Of a stretch of DNA of 64,000 nucleotides, positions 5,773 through 64,000 are shown piece after piece. Source of the DNA: Eledone cirrhosa. Taxonomy: Eukaryota. The translations under genes and the position numbers were made by a program. How positions within the stretch are numbered: the first letter of the stretch is position 1; each line of letters opens with the position of its first letter. The notes below the pieces were generated by a model. It was not told the DNA's origin. It was given only the letters and a program-made list of their open reading frames with translations, and did no database searches. Location of the stretch: the NCBI GenBank assembly GCA_964016885.1, contig OZ024742.1, positions 20,212,001 to 20,276,000 of the forward strand. Reading direction: 5' to 3'.

Positions 5773-6953
5773 CCCGGATGACCATATATAGAATATAGCG
5801 ATATATTTGCAGAGGTATACTTTGATCCTCAGAGCGGTGTACGATCTGTGGTGTACTTGGTTCACTATATAAAGGAGATAAAATTAGTAGTTTAAGTGGT
5901 GTGCTGGTGTGCTCGTATCGTTCATCATTTATTTATTGTAAACTATTGGTACAGAGTATATTATCGATCTAGATTGGTGACAGGCAATACATGTCTGCTT
6001 TCCAGTTCTTCTAAGCAGAAATAACTAAAATAATTCTTACTCTCGGGTCTCCAATAATCACCCCCACCTGCTTATTAATTTTTGTGGTATCATTCCTGAA
6101 ACAATTAATTTTCTTTAGACATTAAAAAACATTATACATAACAAAAAAGTAAATTACTAGAAATCCCAGACGTTATAAATAGGATGCGTTGGGGCCTCAA
6201 TATGTAAAAAACCCACTAATTCTGTTTTTTTTTAAAATTCAACGCAGACAACCTAGAAAAATAACTGACCCATCTCCGCTTATTCTACTTCCGCTTATGA
6301 AATGTTGGAAGTTGTATATACCAAAACAAAACACTATTAAAAGGATTAAAAAAGGGAAATGAAAAGTAGGGGAAAAAAAAGAATCAAGCAGAGAAAGACA
6401 GGCAGAGTGCGGGGGGCACTGCCACCCGGTCTGAGCGGGGCCTCAACGGCTCCCCGACCAGACAAAATGGCCAGAGATGCTCACCGTATTTCTAATTTTC
6501 ATTTTTTATTGTATTAATTGAATACGTTGAGTCGGTACATCAAGGCTCTTGTTACTGAGGGATTATCGATGTAATCCTATCGATTACTCCTATTGATTTA
6601 ATCCTATCTCTAGATTTGTTTTCTGCTTGTGCCTCACTCAACTTTGAAATAACACAGTCTACCCCACTGAAATTAGGTAATGGGGGCCAGAAACTGTGAA
6701 GGTGTAAACAGTAGTAACACTGCGAAATATACGAGTGTTTCATTAGAAACCATTACTTTGATCAATTACTCCGTTCTGTATGTATCAACACTCCGGATAG
6801 TGTTATCAAGATTTCCTGGTAAATTGTAACACAGCCATCACTACTGATCTTTGGAGATAAAAAAATGAAAGCCAAAAGTGATCTAACTACAGTCTTACGT
6901 GGGAGGTGTTTGGTGAGGGAACCCCAAACTGTTATAAGGTCGTAATATAAATA

Positions 6954-7004
6954 TAAAAACAAATAACGAAACGAAATTAAATTTCGTTTCGTTATTTGTT
7001 TTTA
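6954..7004. repeat. Perfect 25-bp-arm hairpin at the 5' edge of the HHR-bearing element
   Basis: taaaaacaaataacgaaacgaaatt-a-aatttcgtttcgttatttgttttta. Confidence 0.85.
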
Positions 7005-7038
7005 TCGTCTCCGCTGAACCGGTACGTACTCACGCTCT

Positions 7039-7046
7039 ATGCAAAT
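7039..7046 (+). promoter_or_regulatory. Octamer ATGCAAAT 100 bp upstream of the HHR core
   Basis: The same motif lies at similar spacing at 8785, 16903(-), 41019 and 40900(-). Confidence 0.5.
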
Positions 7047-7103
7047 TAGTCTGCCCACTACTAATTTTCATAGAAAAAGCATATAACGATATGTGCTTTT
7101 ACG

Positions 7104-7199
7104 ATTCTCTAGAAAGGCCGGAAGATAGGTAAATATTGCTGATGAGATGTAACAACATCGAAACTAGTCCAATATTCCTTGTCTGGCTTTCTGGAGAAT
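7104..7199 (+). ncRNA. Type I hammerhead ribozyme, fully canonical core, extended helix I
   Basis: aatattg-CTGATGA-gatgt aaca acatc-GAAA-ctag-TC-caatatt (7132-7176). Predicted GUC cleavage after 7169. Helix I extends via ttctctagaaaggccgga / tctggctttctggagaa. Confidence 0.92.
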
Positions 7200-7424
7200 A
7201 GAGGAAAGGTGTTTCCTCGAAAACCAGTATGACTCTAAAAACCGGTTTGTCTGTGTGTTTAGATACAGAATAGCTGGACACTCACAGTAAAGTGTCCAGT
7301 GAAAAACTCGGTACATCTACATATGTACACGTGTGTGTATTCATATGCATACTAGTATTTCAGTATACATATGTGGATGTACATTTTTAACTTAATTAAT
7401 ATAAATATACTCCTCTACCTTCTA

Positions 7425-14963: not shown

Positions 14964-15053
<90 letters not shown>

Positions 15054-15165
15054 TAAAAGGAATTCCAACTTTGTCTGATTTACTCGTTTTAATTACAATT
15101 CTTTAAAATGTATAATGGTATTATAATGAAATAGTATGGTAGAATATTAAATGTTAAGTGTTAAT

Positions 15166-15204
15166 TGAACAAGTACTTTCATGCTTTCGCAATCTTCAGG
15201 TTGA
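15166..15204 (-). ncRNA. Minimal hammerhead motif (mirror copy)
   Basis: Reverse complement reads tcaac-CTGAAGA-t tgc gaaa gca t-GAAA-gtac-TT-gttca. Confidence 0.6.
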
Positions 15205-15277
15205 AATTGTGTGGTGACAGTAAAGTTTGCAATTTTCAACAGTTGAAAATTGCAAACTTGACTGTCACCACATATTA

Positions 15278-15316
15278 TGAACCTGAAGATTGCGAAAGCA
15301 TGAAAGTACTTGTTCA
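15278..15316 (+). ncRNA. Minimal hammerhead motif
   Basis: tgaac-CTGAAGA-t tgc gaaa gca t-GAAA-gtac-TT-gttca; helix III is the palindrome AGTACT. Confidence 0.7.
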
Positions 15317-15428
15317 ATTAACACTTAACATTTAATATTCTACCATACTATTTCATTATAATACCATTATACATTTTAAAGAATTGTAATTAAAACGAGT
15401 AAATCAGACAAAGTTGGAATTCCTTTTA

Positions 15429-15494
<66 letters not shown>

Positions 15495-15606
15495 TTGAAA
15501 TAAAATGAAAACGAAATTTCATTTCTCACTCTTAGTTCGGCACTTACTTAAATGTAAGTATGTATGTATACGTACATACATATATGTATACAGACGTATA
15601 GTAGCA

Positions 15607-15669
<63 letters not shown>

Positions 15670-16610: not shown

Positions 16611-16635
<25 letters not shown>

Positions 16636-16766
16636 CAGGTACACATACATACATGCACGTATCAGTTTAGCGGACGCTTATTATAACGCCGCTTTGTTCG
16701 TTTGTAAACAAACTGAACAGCCTGAATTTATGCCGTACGGTGTTAAGGCAACCACGTCACCTTTTT

Positions 16767-16853
16767 GTTCAACACTGACACAGGAACGATGTACTAGTTT
16801 AAAGCTTGTTAGCTATCATCAGCACCGTATACCCTTCTGCCAGATAGTTGAAC
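16767..16853 (-). ncRNA. Hammerhead motif with G12>U (probably inactive)
   Basis: Reverse complement of 16786-16828: acggtg-CTGATGA-t agct aaca agct t-TAAA-ctag-TA-catcgt. Outer helix gttcaac/gttgaac. Confidence 0.72.
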
Positions 16854-17067
16854 GTTCGAAAGTATATACTTTCCTTATGAAAATTAACGGCTGAGCAGCC
16901 TAATTTGCATATCGAGTGAGTTAAGTCGGTCAGGCATACCGAAAACGATAAGTTGAAATAAAATGAAAACGAAATTTCATTTCTCACTCTTAGTACGGCA
17001 CTTACTTAAATGTAAGTATGTATGTATACGTACATACATATATGTATACAGACGTATAGTAGCATGC

Positions 17068-17103
<36 letters not shown>

Positions 17104-17217
17104 ATACAGGTACACATACATACATGCACGTATCAGTTTAGCGGACGCTTATTATAACGCCGCTTTGTTCGTTTGTAAACAAACTGAACAGCCTGAATTT
17201 ATATATATATATATATA

Positions 17218-40565: not shown

Positions 40566-40637
<72 letters not shown>

Positions 40638-40764
40638 AATCTGAGTTTTTCGAATATTAATAATAACATTTGATTCGTTTGCAATTATGCAAACAAACCT
40701 CAATTTTATAGCCATGTCAGTAGAATGAACACTTCATTCTCGCACTGGTGTTGGCATGCGAACA

Positions 40765-40814
40765 GAACTGCAGGCAGTAATGTTTTTGGGTATCACCCTT
40801 CATCAGTACAGCTC
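40765..40814 (-). ncRNA. Inactivated mirror hammerhead (GAAA>AAAA, GUC>GCC)
   Basis: Reverse complement: gagctgta-CTGATGA-agggtgataccca-AAAA-cattactg-CC-tgcagttc. Confidence 0.6.
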
Positions 40815-41103
40815 ACTAGTGAAAATATTTGCTATTTTCAAAAATACACAGTGACTGATCGGGCTGATATGCATGTCAGCAGACTGGCTGATCAGCCAGA
40901 TTTGCATATCAGCAGACTGACCAGTCAGTTTCCTGTATATGAGCGATAAATGGCTGGCTTTGCCAAATTCAGTGGATCTGCTAATATGCAGATCTGACTG
41001 ATCAGCCAGTCTGACGAAATGCAAATAAGGCCGATCAGACACTGCGTATTTTTGAAAATAGCATATATTTTCACTAGCTCTGACAGTTTGGCAGATGAAC
41101 AGT

Positions 41104-41153
41104 GAGCTGTACTGATGAAGGGTGATACCCAGAAACATTAGTGTCTGCAATTC
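41104..41153 (+). ncRNA. Type I hammerhead motif, intact core
   Basis: gagctgta-CTGATGA-a gggt gat accc a-GAAA-cattagtg-TC-tgcaattc; predicted cleavage after 41145. Confidence 0.8.
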
Positions 41154-41360
41154 TGTTCGCATGCCAACACCAGATCAAGAATGAAGTGTTCATTCTATTG
41201 ACATGGCTATAAAATTGAGGCGTGTTTGCATAATTGCAAACGAATCAAATGTTATTATTAATATTCGAAAAGCTCAGATTACATTTATCGTATTCAACCA
41301 TGTAGAGCGAAATTTTCTTTATATATATATATGTTTATATACATATATTGATGAATTTAT

Positions 41361-45816: not shown

Positions 45817-46155
45817 GAATAGCTTTCACCGTATTTTTTTACTAAAGAAATTTTAGTCTGATAATGGGGTTTAGAACCCTCAGATAAATGGAAAAAGATG
45901 AATATTGACGTACATGGGAGTCGAACCCACATCTTTGGTTATCCAGACCACTGTGCTACCATTTACACCAACACATCATGGGTGATGTGTTGGTGTAAAT
46001 GGTAGCACAGTGGTCTGGATAACCAAAGATGTGGGTTCGACTCCCATGTACGTCAATATTCATCTTTTTCCATTTATCTGAGGGTTCTAAACCCCATTAT
46101 CAGACTAAAATTTCTTTAGTAAAAAAATACGGTGAAAGCTATTCTATTTTCTAAT
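45806..46155. mobile_element. Perfect 350-bp palindrome of a tRNA-headed element
   Basis: 173-bp arms with loop tggg at 45979-45982; left end abuts (TA)n. Confidence 0.92.
45984..46055 (+). pseudogene. tRNA-like cloverleaf (SINE head or pseudo-tRNA); mirror copy at 45906-45977 (-)
   Basis: Acceptor gatgtgt/gtacgtc, D arm gtgt/gcac, anticodon loop CTGGATA, T arm gtggg-TTCGACT-cccat, TTTTT about 10 nt downstream. Many wobble pairs and a pyrimidine at position 37 argue against a functional tRNA. Confidence 0.7.
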
Positions 46156-55461: not shown

Positions 55462-57294
55462 AAGAGGGAGAGAGGGAGAGAGGTAAAATGTGTTAGTGGA
55501 AGAACCATCGTCAACAACAATGTGGTAGACTGGCTGTAGCCGACATACAGACCAACTTAGTATTAGTTGATGAAATTACCAACAAGAATTTTGAATAAAG
55601 ATTAACATCTGATCTGTGCCAGCTCCTAAATCAACATCTGTATGAAGATCTTCCTGTACCGAGCCATTATCATGAAAAATGCAGTCTATGCAGGGAAAAC
55701 ACGGAAGATGATTTCCAAGATCCCTCGGAAACTGAAGTGTTCTAGCAAAGATTATATTCAGTGACTGATTCACTAGATATTATATATAGGGACTGATCAC
55801 TAGATATTATATATAGGGACTGTGGACTAGATATTATATATAGGGACTGATCACTAAATATTATATACAGTGACTGATTCACTAGATATTATATATAGGG
55901 ACTGATCACTAGATATTATATATAGGGACTGATTCACTAGATATTATATATAGGGAATGATTCACTAGATATTATATACAGTGACTGATTCACTAGATAT
56001 TATATATAAGGACTGTTCACTAGATATTATATATAGGGACTGATCACTAGATATTATATATAGGGACTGATTCACTAGATATTATATATAGGGACTGATC
56101 ACTAGATATTATATATAGGGACTGTTCACTAGATATTATATATAGGGACTGTTCACTAGATATTATATACAGTGACTGTTCACTAGATATTATATACAGT
56201 GATTGATTCACTAGATATTATATATAGGGACTGTTCACTAGATATTATATATAGGGACTGTTCACTAGATATTATATATAGGGACTGTTCACTAGATATT
56301 ATATATAGGGACTGTTCACTAGATATTATATATAGGGACTGTTCACTAGATATTATATATAGGGACTGTCACTAGATATTATATATAGGGACTGTTCACT
56401 AGATATTATATACAGTGATTGATTCACTAGATATTATATATAGGGACTGTTCACTAGATATTATATATAGGGACTGTTCACTAGATATTATATATAGGGA
56501 CAGTTCACTAGATATTATATATAGGGACTGTTCACTAGATATTATATACAGTGATTGATTCACTAGATATTATATATATAGGGACTGTTCACTAGATATT
56601 ATATATAGGGACTGTTCACTAGATATTATATACAGTGACTGTTCACTAGATATTATATATAGGGACTGTTCACTAGATATTATATATAGGGACTGTTCAC
56701 TAGATATTATATATAGGGACTGGTCACTAGATATTATATATAGGGACTGTTCAGTAGATATTATATACAGGGACTGATCACTAGATATTATATATAGGGA
56801 CTGTTCACTAGATATTATATATAGGCACTGTTCACTAGATATTATATATAGGGACTGTTCACTAGATATTATATATAGGGACTGTTCACTAAATATTATA
56901 TATAGGGACTGTTCACTACATAATATATATAGGGACTGATCACTAGATATTATATATAGGGACTGTTCACTAGATAATATATATCAGGACCGTTCACTAG
57001 CTATTATATATAGGCACTGTTCACTAGATATCATATATAAGGACTGTTCACTAGATATTATATATAGGGACTGTTCACTATATATTATATATAGGGACTG
57101 TTCACTAGATATTATATATAGGGACTGATCACTAGATATTATATATAGGGACTGTTCACTAGATATTATATATAGGGACTGATTCACTAGATATTATATA
57201 TAGGGACTGTTCACTAGACAACTATATATAGGGACTGTTCACTAGATATATATAGGGACTGTTCACTAGATATTATATATAGGGACAGATCACC

Positions 57295-57482
57295 GGCGTT
57301 GGATTGGCAGTATCGGTAGAGGATCGGACGCCATGCTTTCCAGCATAGCTACGTCCCTTTACGATCTGAGTTCAAATCCCGCCGAGGTTGACTTTGCCTT
57401 TCATCCTTACGGGGTCGATAAAATAAAGTAGCAGTAATGCACTAGGTAATTGCTGGCCTTGTGCCTAAAGAAGAAACAATTA
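57295..57482 (+). mobile_element. SINE in satellite
   Basis: Matches the 13838 family. Confidence 0.92.
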
Positions 57483-58398
57483 TATATAGGGACTGATGAC
57501 TAGATATTATATACAGTGACCGTTCACTAGATATTATATATAGGGACTGTTCACTAGATATTATATATAGGGACTGATTGACTAGATAGTATATATAGGG
57601 ACTGATTCACTAGATATTATATATAGGGACTGATTCACTCGATATTATATATAGGAATTGATTCAGTAGATATTATATATAGGGACTAATTCACTAGATA
57701 TTATATATAGGGACTGATTCACTAGATATTATATATAGGGACTGTTCTCTAGATATTATATATAGGGACAGTTCACTAGATATTATATATAGGCACTGTT
57801 CACTAGATATTATATATAGGGACTGTTCACTAGATATTATATATAGGGACTGTTCACTATATATTATATATAGGGACTGTTCACTAGATATTATATATAG
57901 GGACTGATTCACTAGATATTATATATAGGGACTGATTCACTAGATATTATATATAGGGACTGTTCACTAGATATTATATATAGGGACTGTTCACTAGATA
58001 TTATATGTAGGTACTGTTCACTAGATAATATATATAGGGACTGTTCACTAAATATTATATATAGGGACTGTTCACTAGATATTATATATAGGGACTGTTC
58101 ACTAGATATTATATATAGGGACTGATCACTAGATATTATATATAGGGACTGTTCACTAGATACTATATATAGGGATTGTTCACTAGATATTATATATAGG
58201 GACTGTTCACTATATATTATATATAGGGACTGATCACTAGATATTATATATAGGGACTGTTCACTAGATATTATATATAGGGACTGATTCACTAGATATT
58301 ATATATAGGGACTGTTCACTAGATACTATATATAGGGACTGTTCACTAGATATATGTAGGGACTATTCACTAGATATTATATGTAGGGACACATCACC

Positions 58399-58586
58399 GG
58401 CGGTGGATTGGCAGTATCGGTAGAGGATCGGACGCCATGCTTTCCAGCATAGCTACGTCCCTTTACGATCTGAGTTCAAATCCCGCCGAGGTTGACTTTG
58501 CCTTTCATCCATACGGGGTCGATAAAATAAAGTAGCAGTAATGCACTAGGTAATTGCTGGCCTTGTGCCTAAAGTAGAAACAATTA
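58399..58586 (+). mobile_element. SINE in satellite
   Basis: Same junctions as 57295. Confidence 0.92.
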
Positions 58587-59122
58587 TATATAGGGACTGA
58601 TGACTAGATATTATATACAGTGACTGTTCACTAGATATTATATATAGGGACTGTTCACTAGATATTATATATAGGGACTGATTGACTAGATATTATATAT
58701 ATGGACTGATTGACTAGATATTATATATAAGGATTGATTCACTAGATATTATATATAGGGACTGATTCACTAGATATTATATATAGGGACAGATTCACTA
58801 GATATTATATATAGGGACTGTTCACTAGATATTATATACAGTGACTGATCACTAGATATTATATATAGGGACTGTTCACTAGATATTATATATAGGGACT
58901 GTTCAATAGATATTATATGTAGGTACTGTTCACTAGATATTATATATAGGGACTGATCACTAGATATTATATATAGGGACTGTTCACTAGATATTATATA
59001 TAGGGACTGATTCACTAGATATTATATATAGGGACTGTTCACTAGACAACTATATATAGGGACTGTTCACTAGATATATATAGGGACTGTTCACTAGATA
59101 TTATATATAGGGACAGATCACC

Positions 59123-59310
59123 GGCGTTGGATTGGCAGTATCGGTAGAGGATCGGACGCCATGCTTTCCAGCATAGTTACGTCCCTTTACGATCTGAGTT
59201 CAAATCCCGCCGAGGTTGACTTTGCCTTTCATCCTTACGGGGTCGATAAAATAAAGTAGCAGTAATGCACTAGGTAATTGCTGGCCTTGTGCCTAAAGAA
59301 GAAACAATTA
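59123..59310 (+). mobile_element. SINE in satellite
   Basis: Same junctions as 57295. Confidence 0.92.
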
Positions 59311-59838
59311 TATATAGGGACTGATGACTAGATATTATATACAGTGACCGTTCACTAGATATTATATATAGGGACTGTTCACTAGATATTATATATAGGG
59401 ACTGATTGACTAGATATTATATATAGGGACTGTTCACTATATATTATATATAGGGACTGTTCACTAGATATTATATATAGGGACTGATTCACTAGATATT
59501 ATATATAGGGTCTGATTCACTAGATATTATATATAGGGACTGTTCACTAGATATTATATATAGGGACTGTTCACTAGATATTACATGTAGGTACTGTTCA
59601 CTAGATAATATATATAGGGACTGTTCACTAAATATTATATATAGGGACTGTTCACTAGATATTATATATAGGGACTGTTCACTAGATATTATATATAGGG
59701 ACTGATCACTAGATATTATATATAGGGACTGTTCACTAGATACTATATATAGGCACTGTTCACTATATATTATATATAGGGACTGATCACTAGATATTAT
59801 ATATAGGGACTGTTCACTAGATATTATATATAGGAACT

Positions 59839-60026
59839 CGGTGAATTGGCAGTATCGGTAGAGGGTCGGACGCCATGCTTTGACGCATAGAGTTACGGCC
59901 CTTGCCATTCTGAGTTCAAATCCCGCCGAGGTTAACTTTGCCTTTCATCCTTACGGGGTCGATAAAATAAAGTACCAGTAATACACTGGGAAATTGCTGG
60001 CCTTGTGCCAAAAGTAGAAACAATTA
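59839..60026 (+). mobile_element. SINE in satellite (other subfamily, like 13838)
   Basis: Diagnostic ctttgacgcatagagttacggccc; different 5' junction. Confidence 0.92.
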
Positions 60027-60151
60027 TATATAGGGACTGATTCACTAGATATTATATATAGGGACTGTTCACTAGATACTATATATAGGGACTGTTCACT
60101 AGATATATGTAGGGACTATTCACTAGATATTATATATAGGGACAGATCACC

Positions 60152-60339
60152 GGCGGTGGATTGGCAGTATCGGTAGAGGATCGGACGCCATGCTTTCCAG
60201 CATAGCTATGTCCCTTTACGATCTGAATTCAAATCCCGCCGAGGTTGACTTTGCCTTTCATCCTTACGGGGTCGATAAAATAAAGTAGCAGTAATGCACT
60301 AGGTAATTGCTGGCCTTGTGTCTAAAGTAGAAACAATTA
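60152..60339 (+). mobile_element. SINE in satellite
   Basis: Same junctions as 58399. Confidence 0.92.
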
Positions 60340-62846
60340 TATATAGGGACTGATGACTAGATATTATATACAGTGACTGTTCACTAGATATTATATATAG
60401 GGACTGTTCACTAGATATTATATATAGGGACTGATTGACTAGATATTATATATAGGGACTGTTCACTATATATTATATATAGGGACTGATTCACTAGATA
60501 TTATATATAGGGACTGATTCACTAGATATTATATATATGGACTGTTCACTAGATATTATATACAGTGACTGATCACTAGATATTATATATAGGGAGTGAT
60601 TCACTAGATATTATATATAGGGACTGATCACTAGATATTATATATAGGGACTGTTCACTAGATATTATATATAGGGACTGATTTACTAGATATTATATAT
60701 ACGGACTTTTCACTAGATATTATATATAGGGACTGATTCACTAGATATTATATATAGGGACTGATTCACTAGATATTATATATAGGGACTGTTCACTAGA
60801 TATTATATATAGGGACTGTTCACTAGATATTATATATAGGGACTGATCACTAGATATTATATATAGGGACTGATTCACTAGATATTATATATATGGACTG
60901 ATTCACTAGATATTATATATAGGGGCTGTTCACTAGATATTATATACAGTGACTGATCACTAGATATTATATATAGGGAGTGATTCACTAGATATTATAT
61001 ATAGGGACTGATCACTAGATATTATATATAGGGACTGTTCACTAGATATTATATATAGGGACTGATTTACTAGATATTATATATACGGACTTTTCACTAG
61101 ATATTATATATATGGACTGATTCACTAGATATTATATATAGGGACTGATTCACTAGATATTATATATAGGGACTGTTCACTAGATATATATAGGGACTGT
61201 TCACTAGATGTTATATATAGGGACTGTTCACTAGATATTATATATAGGGACTGTTCACTAGATATTATATATAGGGACTGTTTACTAGATATTATATACA
61301 GTGACTGTTCACTAGATATTATATATAGGGACTGATTCACTAGATATTATATATAGGGACTGTTCATTAGATATTATATATAGGGACAGATCACTAGATA
61401 TTATATATAGGGACTGTTCACTAGATATTATATATAGGGACTGTTCACTAGATATTATATATAGGGACTGTTCACTAGATATTATATACAGTGATTGATT
61501 CACTAGATATTATATATAGGGACTGTTCACTAGATATTATATATCGGGACTGTTCACTAGATATTATATATAGGGACTGTTCACTAGATATTATATACAG
61601 TGACTGATTCACTAGATATTATATATAGGGACTGATCACTAGATATTATATATAGGGACTGATCACTAGATATTATATATAGGGACTGTTCATAAGATAT
61701 TATATATCGGGACTGATTCACTAGATATTATATACAGTGACTGATTCACTAGATATTATATATAGGGACTGATCACTAGATATTATATACAGTGACTGAT
61801 TCGCTAGATATTATATATAGGGACTGATCACTAGATATTATATACAGTGACTGATTCACTAGATATTATATATAGGGACTGATCACTAGATATTATATAC
61901 AGTGACTGATTCACTAGATATTATATATAGGGACTGATCACTAGATATTATATACAGTGACTGATTCACTAGATATTATATACAGTGACTGATTCACTAG
62001 ATATTATATATAGGGACTGTTCACTAGATATTATTACAGGGACTGATCACTAGATATTATATATAGGGACTGTTTACTAGATATTATATATAGGGACTGA
62101 TCACTAGATATTATATATAGGGACTGATCACTAGATATTATATATAGGGACTGATCACTAGATATTATATATAGGGACTGTTTACTAGATATTATATATA
62201 GGGACTGTTTACTAGATATTATATATAGGGACTGATCACTAGATATTATATATAGGGACTGTTTACTAGATATTATATATAGGGACTGATCACTAGATAT
62301 TATATATAGGGACTGTTTACTAGATATTATATATAGGGACTGTTTACTAGATATTATATATAGGGACTGATCACTAGATATTATATATAGGGACTGTTTA
62401 CTAGATATTATATATAGGGACTGATCACTAGATATTATATATAGGGACTGTTTACTAGATATTATATATAGGGACTGATCACTAGATATTATATATAGGG
62501 ACTGATCACTAGATATTATATATAGGGACTGATCACTAGATATTATATATAGGGACTGTTTACTAGATATTATATATAGGGACTGATCACTAGATATTAT
62601 ATATAGGAACTGTTCATAAGATATTATATATAGGGACTGATTCACTAGATATTATATACAGTGACTGATTCACTAGATATTATATATAGGGACTGATTCA
62701 CTAGATATTATATATAGGGACTCATTCACTAGATATTATATACAGCGACAGATTCACTAGATATTATATATAGGGACTGTTCACTAGAGATTATATATAG
62801 GGACTGTTCACTAGATATTATATATAGGGACTGTTCACTGGATATT

Positions 62847-63007
62847 TGGATTGGCAGTATCGGCAAAGGGTCGAACGCCATGCTTTGACGCATAGAGTTA
62901 CGGTCCTCTCCATTCTGAGTTCAAACCCCTTACGGGGTCAATAAAATAAAGTACCAGTAATGTACTGGCTAATTTGTTGGCCTTGTGCCAAAAGATAGAA
63001 ACAATTA
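62847..63007 (+). mobile_element. SINE in satellite with internal deletion
   Basis: gagttcaaacccct|tacggggtc lacks about 25 bp. Confidence 0.88.
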
Positions 63008-64000
63008 TATATAGGGACTGTTCACTAGATATTATATATAAGGCCTGTTCACTAGATATTATATACAGTGACTGGTTCACTAGATATATATAGGGACCTG
63101 TTCACTGGATATATATATAGAGAGAGAGAGACCTGTTCACTGGATATTAGATACACAGACTAGTTCACTAAATATAATGTACAGAGATGTGTTCACTAGA
63201 TATATATAGAGACCTGTTCACTAGATATAATATATAGACCTGTTCACTAGACATAATATATAGGGACTGTTCACTAGATATAATATATAAGGACTATTCA
63301 CTAGATATTATATAGAGACCTGTTCACTAGATATATATAGAGACCTGTTCACTAGATATAATATATAGACCTGTTCACTAGATATGATATATAGACCTGT
63401 TCACTTGATATATATAGAGACCTGTTCACTAGATATAATATATAGGGACTGTTCACTAGATATTATATATAGGGACTGTTCACTAGATATAATATATAAT
63501 GACTGTTCACTAGATATAATATATAATGACTGTTCACTAGATATAATATATAAGGACTATTCACTAGATATATAAGGACTGTTCACTAGATATAATATAT
63601 AAAGACTTTTCACTAGATATAATATATAGGGACTGTTCACTAGATATAATATATAAGGACTGTTCACTAGATATATAAGGACTGTTCACTAGATATAATA
63701 TATAAAGACTTTTCACTAGATATAATATATAGGGACTGTTCACTAGATATAATATATAAGGACTGTTCACTAGATATATAAGGACTGTTCACTAGATATA
63801 ATATATAAAGACTTTTCACTAGATATAATATATAAGGACTGTTCACTAGATATAATATATAAGGACTGTTCACTAGATATATAAGGACTGTTCACTAGAT
63901 ATAATATATAAAGACTTTTCACTAGATATAATATATAGGGACTGTTCACTAGATATAATATATAAGGACTGTTCACTAGATATATAAGGACTGTTCACTA

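What the first reader, a model, noticed from the sequence alone, without database searches (positions are those of the whole stretch)
6954..7300. Textbook hammerhead at 7132-7176 and its diverged homolog at 16.8-17.0 kb show compensatory change
Seen: 6975-7200 aligns with the reverse complement of 16767-16985 (aaatttcgttt, ttatcgt, actcac, tatgcaaattagNctgc, taattttcata). Loop 2 (AACA) and helix III (ACTAGT) are identical, while helix I (aatattg/caatatt vs acggtg/catcgt), helix II (gatgt/acatc vs agct/agct) and the distal helix differ yet still pair. Inference: selection on RNA structure. This is the best candidate here for an active ribozyme. A perfect hairpin at 6954-7004 marks a short fold-back at the element's 5' edge.
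Basis: partly seen in the sequence, partly recalled or inferred. Interest (0 to 1): 0.78.

Follow-up and report, generated by a model that had tools for sequence, protein, structure and literature searches.

The report
Hammerhead retrozyme copy, Penelope-style insertion
The hammerhead motif is really there, but it is one copy of a young 466-base repeat found well over a thousand times in this animal genome, likely a self-cleaving 'retrozyme' that is likely pasted around by Penelope-type jumping-gene enzymes, so it is a new member of a known kind rather than a unique ribozyme.

Summary
Confirmed: an intact type I hammerhead at 7132-7176 (Rfam HH9, E 8e-9, below the gathering score) and a true homolog at 16.8-17.0 kb with compensatory helix changes. 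Helix III is one pair plus a palindromic tetraloop, so cleavage probably needs a dimer, which this solo copy cannot form in cis. The 'fold-back' is the short inverted arm of a Penelope-type insertion inside a 13-bp target duplication, shown by empty paralogous sites (14 of 14). In 34 of 34 classifiable two-armed insertions the arms end at two different fixed sites 73 nt apart, as in an autonomous Penelope-like element of this genome (6 of 7). Verdict: non-LTR retrozyme, new member of a known kind; its ends argue for Penelope-type mobilisation. Cleavage, expression and circles are untested; no partner element was identified. The scan noted similar Penelope-type insertions in other genomes.

The parts
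6943..6955 (+). Left copy of the 13-bp target-site duplication
   Evidence: Same 13 bases at 7397-7409; present once in 14 of 14 paralogous empty sites of the host repeat
6953..6993 (-). Short inverted arm (28-41 nt) ending at the family's fixed outer end END2; with the forward arm it makes the 25-bp hairpin 6953-7005
   Evidence: 6953-6993 matches family units on the minus strand at 100%; the hairpin loop is the reverse complement of the native loop; fold
6981..7397 (+). Forward arm: 0.9 of one 466-bp unit of family A, ending at the fixed inner end END1; the junction with the inverted arm lies in 6981-6993, inside a 13-bp hairpin native to the unit
   Evidence: 99.3-99.5% identical to tandem units elsewhere
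7036..7074 (+). Hairpin shared by families A and B, just 3' of END2 on the RNA; contains an octamer-like ATGCAAAT (7039-7046). Role unknown: candidate enzyme-binding RNA element or promoter element
   Evidence: Folds; conserved; 5'-arm variants at 7039, 7043, 7044, 7048 are all A>G and keep G.U pairing
7104..7199 (+). Extended hammerhead domain with distal stem and TA bulge next to helix I
   Evidence: Fold z -4.6; Rfam HH9 alignment; TA invariant in 10 of 10 rows
7132..7176 (+). Type I hammerhead, intact core, predicted cleavage after C7169, one-pair helix III with palindromic tetraloop
   Evidence: 1,582 exact copies of 7139-7176
7397..7409 (+). Right copy of the 13-bp target-site duplication
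16611..17202 (-). Copy of sister family B (about 1.25 units, flanked by TA tracts)
   Evidence: 1,490 candidates, best 40 at 99-100%; unit map
16786..16828 (-). Family B hammerhead with G12 changed to T at 16801 (likely dead), T.T at the base of helix II, GUA triplet
   Evidence: 338 of 24,738 B motifs lack G12

Best explanation
The locus is a recent insertion of a 466-bp non-coding tandem-repeat element carrying a type I hammerhead, likely a non-LTR retrozyme mobilised by a Penelope-like element (PLE) protein. Shown: intact hammerhead, thousands of near-identical dispersed and tandem copies, head-to-head arms with scattered inner junctions, two fixed outer ends 73 nt apart used one per arm, AT-rich targets, a 13-bp target duplication here. 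Inferred: tandem arrays are transcribed; paired hammerheads cut the RNA to unit length (probably as dimers) and a host ligase may circularise it; a PLE endonuclease makes staggered nicks in AT-rich DNA; each nicked strand primes reverse transcription at one of two internal RNA sites; the enzyme reads through the hammerhead site (uncut or re-ligated RNA) for 0.1 to 15 units; the two truncated cDNAs are joined. In this window one arm ran 0.9 unit and the other only about 30-40 nt, which produces the hairpin. The solo copy here is probably a dead end, since it has one hammerhead and cannot release a unit-length RNA.
For: Copy number and youth. Covariation. G12 varies only sporadically (338 of 24,738) while neutral position 7 differs in whole subfamilies (2,701 in one). 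End coupling: 34 of 34 classifiable insertions have one END1 and one END2, of 37 two-armed insertions in 52 stretches; no family B locus of 31 has END2 at both outer ends. Target duplication. PLEs with RT and GIY-YIG are abundant here (10,596 candidates; Pfam on 5 frames), and one family has the same TA targets and two ends, discordant in 6 of 7 two-armed loci. Two internal initiation sites explaining the PLE 'tail' were shown in vitro (PMC11167929). No pile-up of inner junctions at the cleavage site (1 of 78 listed values within 3 nt). The unit folds strongly as a circle with helices I and II formed (z -11.1, 60 shuffles).
Against: No cleavage, expression or circle was observed. No autonomous PLE sharing sequence with family A or B turned up in 50 GIY-YIG loci examined of 150 listed, so the partner is inferred from end anatomy only. 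The Rfam score is below the HH9 gathering cut-off. Some insertions carry a dead G12 in two neighbouring motifs, once in both arms, and PLE insertion in vitro did not need hammerhead cleavage, so the ribozyme's part in mobility is not shown. In a recent preprint only 1 of 9 predicted Xenopus retrozyme dimers cleaved. The PLE pair in this window has the same end on both sides. Loci were picked through intact hammerheads, mostly on one contig.
Confidence: 0.85

Rival explanations
1. Same element, different route to arrays: templates are uncut linear read-through RNAs and long arrays grow afterwards by unequal exchange, with no circular RNA involved.
For: Higher-order periods of 3, 4, 4 and 6 units in 4 of 14 arrays fit block duplication as well as multimeric circles; unprocessed RNA was the main PLE substrate in vitro; the preprint 10.64898/2026.07.22.740005 favours local amplification; no ligation scar at the cleavage site (115 of 118 rows identical).
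Against: Both arms of single insertions are multi-unit with exact ends; in 4 of 14 arrays all units are identical, including 18 units over both arms with array-specific variants.
Confidence: 0.35
2. The unit is only the terminal repeat (pLTR) of an autonomous Penelope-like element and the window copy is a truncated stump of it.
For: Inverted truncated arm, tail at one end, target duplication and hammerhead are all pLTR features; only 50 of 150 listed GIY-YIG loci were inspected.
Against: Arrays are pure 466-bp units up to 15.6 long with no reading frame between them; the PLEs found have unrelated 3' ends and hammerheads.
Confidence: 0.08
3. A DNA-level rolling-circle element (Helitron/Helentron-like) with hairpins and microsatellite, carrying a hammerhead as a passenger.
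For: Tandem arrays, TA targets and terminal hairpins occur in such elements (recalled, not tested).
Against: A 13-bp target duplication is shown; inverted arms with scattered junctions and two coupled ends match PLEs; helices covary as RNA.
Confidence: 0.03
4. A domesticated ribozyme kept by selection at this locus for a host function.
For: Intact core and strong fold.
Against: One of 1,582 identical motifs, 99.3-99.5% like other units, inserted into an older repeat.
Confidence: 0.02

Closest known systems
Metazoan non-LTR retrozymes (Cervera and de la Pena 2020, PMC7229834; Li, Clavereau and Pollet 2026, 10.64898/2026.07.22.740005)
   Same: Type I hammerhead in each unit of a short, low-GC, non-coding tandem repeat; thousands of copies; target duplication longer than 4 bp; PLEs in the same genome.
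   Different: Unit of 466 bp is slightly above the 150-450 bp range of the 2020 paper (inside the 51-972 bp of the preprint); sequence is new; the two-armed anatomy with coupled ends is not described for retrozymes in the parts of those papers that I read; expression and circles untested here.
Axolotl/newt satellite hammerheads HHR_Amex1 and HHR_Amex2 (PMC7229834, section 15)
   Same: Family A has the Amex1-type helix III (one pair, palindromic tetraloop); family B has the U.U mismatch at the base of helix II seen in Amex2.
   Different: Family B combines the weak helix II with the weak helix III; different host and unit sequence.
Endonuclease-bearing Penelope-like elements and their pLTR/tail (PMC8557442, PMC3846280, PMC11167929)
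   Same: Partial tandems, inverted 5'-truncated arm, tail at one end, AT-rich or (TA)n targets, target duplication of about 8-13 bp, hammerhead.
   Different: No reading frame; tail is 73 nt instead of 30-40; hammerhead has distal stem and bulge instead of the minimal pLTR form; arrays of many whole units.
Rfam RF02275 Hammerhead_HH9 (clan CL00010)
   Same: Full-length model match with the catalytic core and the loop 1 bulge.
   Different: 38.9 bits against a gathering score of 52; helix III five bases shorter; HH9 is a single-copy vertebrate motif (recalled).

Membership tests
Type I hammerhead ribozyme | Core CUGANGA, GAAA, UH with three helices, helix I open | tested here: met
   for 7132-7176; not met by the 16.8-kb copy (G12 lost)
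Type I hammerhead ribozyme | Covarying helices I and II | tested here: met
   8 of 14 pairs with two-sided change, 0 of 500 shuffles; 10 related rows chosen by me
Type I hammerhead ribozyme | Site-specific self-cleavage | not testable with these tools
   Bench assay needed
Rfam HH9 family | Score at or above 52 bits | tested here: not met
   38.9 bits
Non-LTR retrozyme | Hammerhead in every unit of a short tandem repeat, dimers to multimers | tested here: met
   466-bp period, arms up to 15.6 units
Non-LTR retrozyme | Non-coding, low GC, no LTR | tested here: met
   No frame of 100 aa within 6953-7397; unit 36% GC; PBS and PPT not searched
Non-LTR retrozyme | Dispersed copies with target duplication longer than 4 bp | tested here: met
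   13 bp with empty paralogous sites; 11-13 bp at other readable sites
Non-LTR retrozyme | Expressed as unit-length linear and circular RNA | tested here: inconclusive
   No listed run is on record as RNA; contigs cannot tell a circle from a tandem array
PLE-mobilised non-autonomous element | Inverted truncated arm and tail at one end | tested here: met
   34 of 34 classifiable insertions
PLE-mobilised non-autonomous element | Autonomous PLE in the genome | tested here: met
PLE-mobilised non-autonomous element | Sequence shared with the pLTR of a named partner | tested here: inconclusive
   None in 50 of 150 listed loci
Autonomous Penelope-like element | RT and GIY-YIG reading frame in the element | tested here: not met
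   Pure non-coding units

The most novel reading that the evidence does not exclude
These arrays are written in one step at insertion: a Penelope-type reverse transcriptase dimer primes both nicked target strands, each obligately at a different one of two internal sites, and rolls round monomeric or multimeric hammerhead circles. The strict one-of-each end rule and the 3-, 4- and 6-unit variant periods would then be direct genomic footprints of PLE-driven rolling-circle copying of retrozyme circles, and this 466-nt RNA a minimal natural template for dissecting PLE integration.
Probability: 0.45. Interest if true: 0.65.

Novelty: new member of a known kind. Interest (0 to 1): 0.4.

Why it matters
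As a ribozyme it is ordinary: one of tens of thousands of retrozyme hammerheads in this genome. Its value is mechanistic. Which enzyme moves animal retrozymes is open: the 2020 paper names 'LINEs or PLEs among others' and the 2026 preprint gives co-occurrence and sequence-relationship evidence in vertebrates. Very young, abundant insertions whose ends follow the PLE two-site rule, with a proven target duplication, give anatomical evidence for PLE mobilisation and a short RNA with mapped candidate initiation sites that can be tested with a purified PLE protein.

Tried and rejected
Partner search: blastn of units A and B against 50 GIY-YIG loci and a profile search over all loci held found only separate insertions of the repeats, no pLTR link. 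Expression: no RNA holder listed; four coded runs laid twice gave contigs only, and a single cyclic 495-base contig in one run of another organism cannot be told from a tandem array. RNA-editing footprint: no significant A>G excess in RNA sense among variants shared by units (17 against 12 T>C, p 0.21; 156 units, 36 insertions). Octamer as an essential promoter element: present upstream in 242 of 264 A rows and 63 of 73 B rows, but only 79 of 180 rows of the sister variant, and absent from a young 18-unit array, so not required; the newt snRNA-type promoter is known to me only through a citing passage (PMC2220036). Linear cleaved monomer as template: no pile-up of junctions at the cut site (biased toward loci with a whole hammerhead). 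A dimer cofold did not show the intermolecular helix III (the program is not suited to it). My first end-classifying script had a faulty motif and was discarded; there I dropped 2 of 39 rows (an internal palindrome artefact and a duplicate) and left 3 insertions unclassified. The bacterial promoter scan is irrelevant to this host. The host taxon was not determined; 'octopus' and 'cephalopod' were my guess.

Full report
Observation. The window sequence holds a complete type I hammerhead: helix I 7132-7138/7170-7176, core 7139-7145, helix II with loop AACA, GAAA at 7160-7163, palindromic ACTAGT, and C17 at 7169. Rfam matches it to HH9 over the whole model (38.9 bits, E 8.1e-9, gathering score 52) and 7100-7210 folds at z -4.6. 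The match to 16767-16985 is far beyond chance (score 122 against a maximum of 38 in 1000 shuffles, 144 of 223 columns). Between the two copies 5 of 14 pairs change on both sides and 2 break. The 16.8-kb copy reads TAAA where GAAA is required; G12 is the general base (PMC6155905, passages), and Rfam finds no hammerhead there. The hairpin is 25 bp, 6953-7005.

What it is. The window lies in a 3.0-Gb assembly (taxon not determined). The query 6975-7230 gave 813 candidates; the 40 scored are essentially identical and many lie 466 bp apart. Exact counts: 1,582 of motif 7139-7176; 5,308 matches to a pattern for other G-C-closed variants, the first 100 listed all being a sister form with an A-U to U-A swap in helix II; 24,738 family B motifs, of which 338 lack G12. 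Neutral position 7 differs in whole subfamilies (2,701). Over 10 representative rows, 8 of 14 pairs show two-sided changes, no shuffle of 500 reaches this and slid controls give 1; the rows are related and were chosen by me, so they count as a handful of independent events. The structure is thus maintained in the lineages that multiply; the individual copies decay.

The fold-back. In arrays the unit has only a 13-bp native hairpin there. In the window, 6953-6993 is a minus-strand piece of the unit. Mapping 52 stretches gave 39 two-armed calls; after dropping an internal palindrome artefact and a duplicate, 37 insertions remain. Each is a reverse array joined head to head to a forward array. 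Inner junctions are scattered over the unit; outer ends fall at two fixed sites, END1 (window 7397) and END2 (equivalent to 7004-7005), 73 nt apart. All 34 insertions with both ends classifiable have one of each (19 and 15 in the two orientations; 3 unclassified); independent choice would give this with probability 2^-34. The other 15 stretches gave no two-armed call. Family B has END2 at the homologous place and never at both outer ends in 31 loci, though its END1 lies in a microsatellite and was incompletely scored. Most targets are (TA)n. The window insertion sits in an older repeat; 14 of 14 fetched paralogs of that repeat show the left flank joined to a single copy of the 13 bases that flank the element twice here, which proves the duplication. 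Other readable sites give 11-13 bp.

Who moves it. Inverted truncated arms, a tail at one end and microsatellite targets are described for Penelope-like elements (PMC8557442, passages; PMC3846280, passages), and the tail equals the stretch between two internal reverse-transcription start sites in vitro (PMC11167929, parts 1-2 of 4). The genome is rich in such elements: 10,596 GIY-YIG candidates, frames up to 1,096 codons, RT in 5 of 5 and GIY-YIG in 4 of 5 frames scanned. One family with its own hammerhead (5,173 exact motifs) has two ends and TA targets, discordant in 6 of 7 two-armed loci; the exception is the pair in this window. No element sharing sequence with A or B was found in 50 of 150 listed loci, so the partner is not identified.

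How it likely works. Shown: anatomy, copy number, covariation, coupled ends, target duplication. Inferred: arrays are transcribed, cut between units by hammerheads and possibly circularised, as shown for coral, mussel and axolotl retrozymes (PMC7229834, abstract, passages and sections 14, 15, 17); a PLE protein nicks both strands about 12 nt apart and primes one cDNA at each site; the cDNAs run through the hammerhead site (1 of 78 listed junction values within 3 nt of it, about the chance rate) and are joined. Helix III can form only one pair plus a palindromic tetraloop, the axolotl Amex1 type that cleaved 6% as a monomer and far better as a dimer, so the solo copy here is a weaker candidate for activity than any tandem array of the family. 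For rolling-circle copying: 4 of 14 arrays have all units identical, one with 18 units over both arms; 4 of 14 show variant periods of 3, 4, 4 and 6 units; the unit folds as a circle at z -11.1 with helices I and II formed. Against: periods also arise by block duplication, the two arms of an insertion can differ, some neighbouring motifs share a dead G12, cleavage was not needed for PLE insertion in vitro, and only 1 of 9 predicted Xenopus dimers cleaved (10.64898/2026.07.22.740005, parts 1-3 of 5). The block shared by A and B upstream of the hammerhead lies just 3' of END2, where the PLE protein-binding region lay in vitro. It has an octamer-like 8-mer (label recalled), but four A>G variants in its 5' arm keep pairing while three of them destroy the 8-mer, which leans to an RNA hairpin; no two-sided changes are seen there.

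Comparison and novelty. It works like, and meets the sequence-testable criteria of, a metazoan non-LTR retrozyme; expression, circles and cleavage are untested. It is not an HH9 member by score and not an autonomous PLE. Seven literature searches showed no description of this family or of coupled ends in retrozyme insertions; I did not see the supplements of PMC7229834 or the preprint, nor the 2014 paper on PLE hammerheads, any of which may show such insertions. The one-sided tail itself is known for PLEs. The scan has no notes on this genome; notes from other genomes describe PLE-type palindromic stumps and ready-made tandem arrays, unchecked by me.

Verdict. Real feature, new member of a known kind, interest 0.4: ordinary as a ribozyme, useful as anatomical evidence on how retrozymes move.

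Noticed in passing
window 15051-15431: Palindromic pair of 3' ends of an autonomous PLE family, with hammerheads at 15199 (-) and 15283 (+), in TA tracts; both outer ends are the short end, unlike 6 other two-armed loci; many genomic pairs have the same 112-128 bp spacing, so it may move as a fixed mini-element.
   Followed up: partly
window 40635-41285: Another two-armed hammerhead element (motifs at 40806 (-) and 41112 (+)) with ATGCAAAT 93 nt upstream of the core; weak profile hit to the A/B block, E 1.6e-4.
   Followed up: partly
window 15490-15668: Short family B fragment ending at END2, in the TA tract beside the PLE pair.
   Followed up: partly
window 45906-46055: Near-perfect palindrome of two tRNA-like copies, 47 bits each against Rfam tRNA.
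   Followed up: no
window 17387-38597 and 55751-63983: A 21-kb array of a 16-bp unit and an 8-kb array of a 27-bp unit.
   Followed up: no
L124:8627-9771, L067:2400-2729, L052:2804-3133, L067:571-900: Further hammerhead repeat families with T.T at the base of helix II, some with the same AACA loop; the genome holds many hammerhead families.
   Followed up: partly
G000:C2:17246516-17247105: Family B insertion with the G12 lesion in both arms, suggesting that RNA with a dead hammerhead can be copied.
   Followed up: no
L168 (G000:C1:95652001-95662000): A long, more diverged array of about 470-bp units filling the whole 10-kb stretch, a possible older or satellite-like source locus.
   Followed up: no
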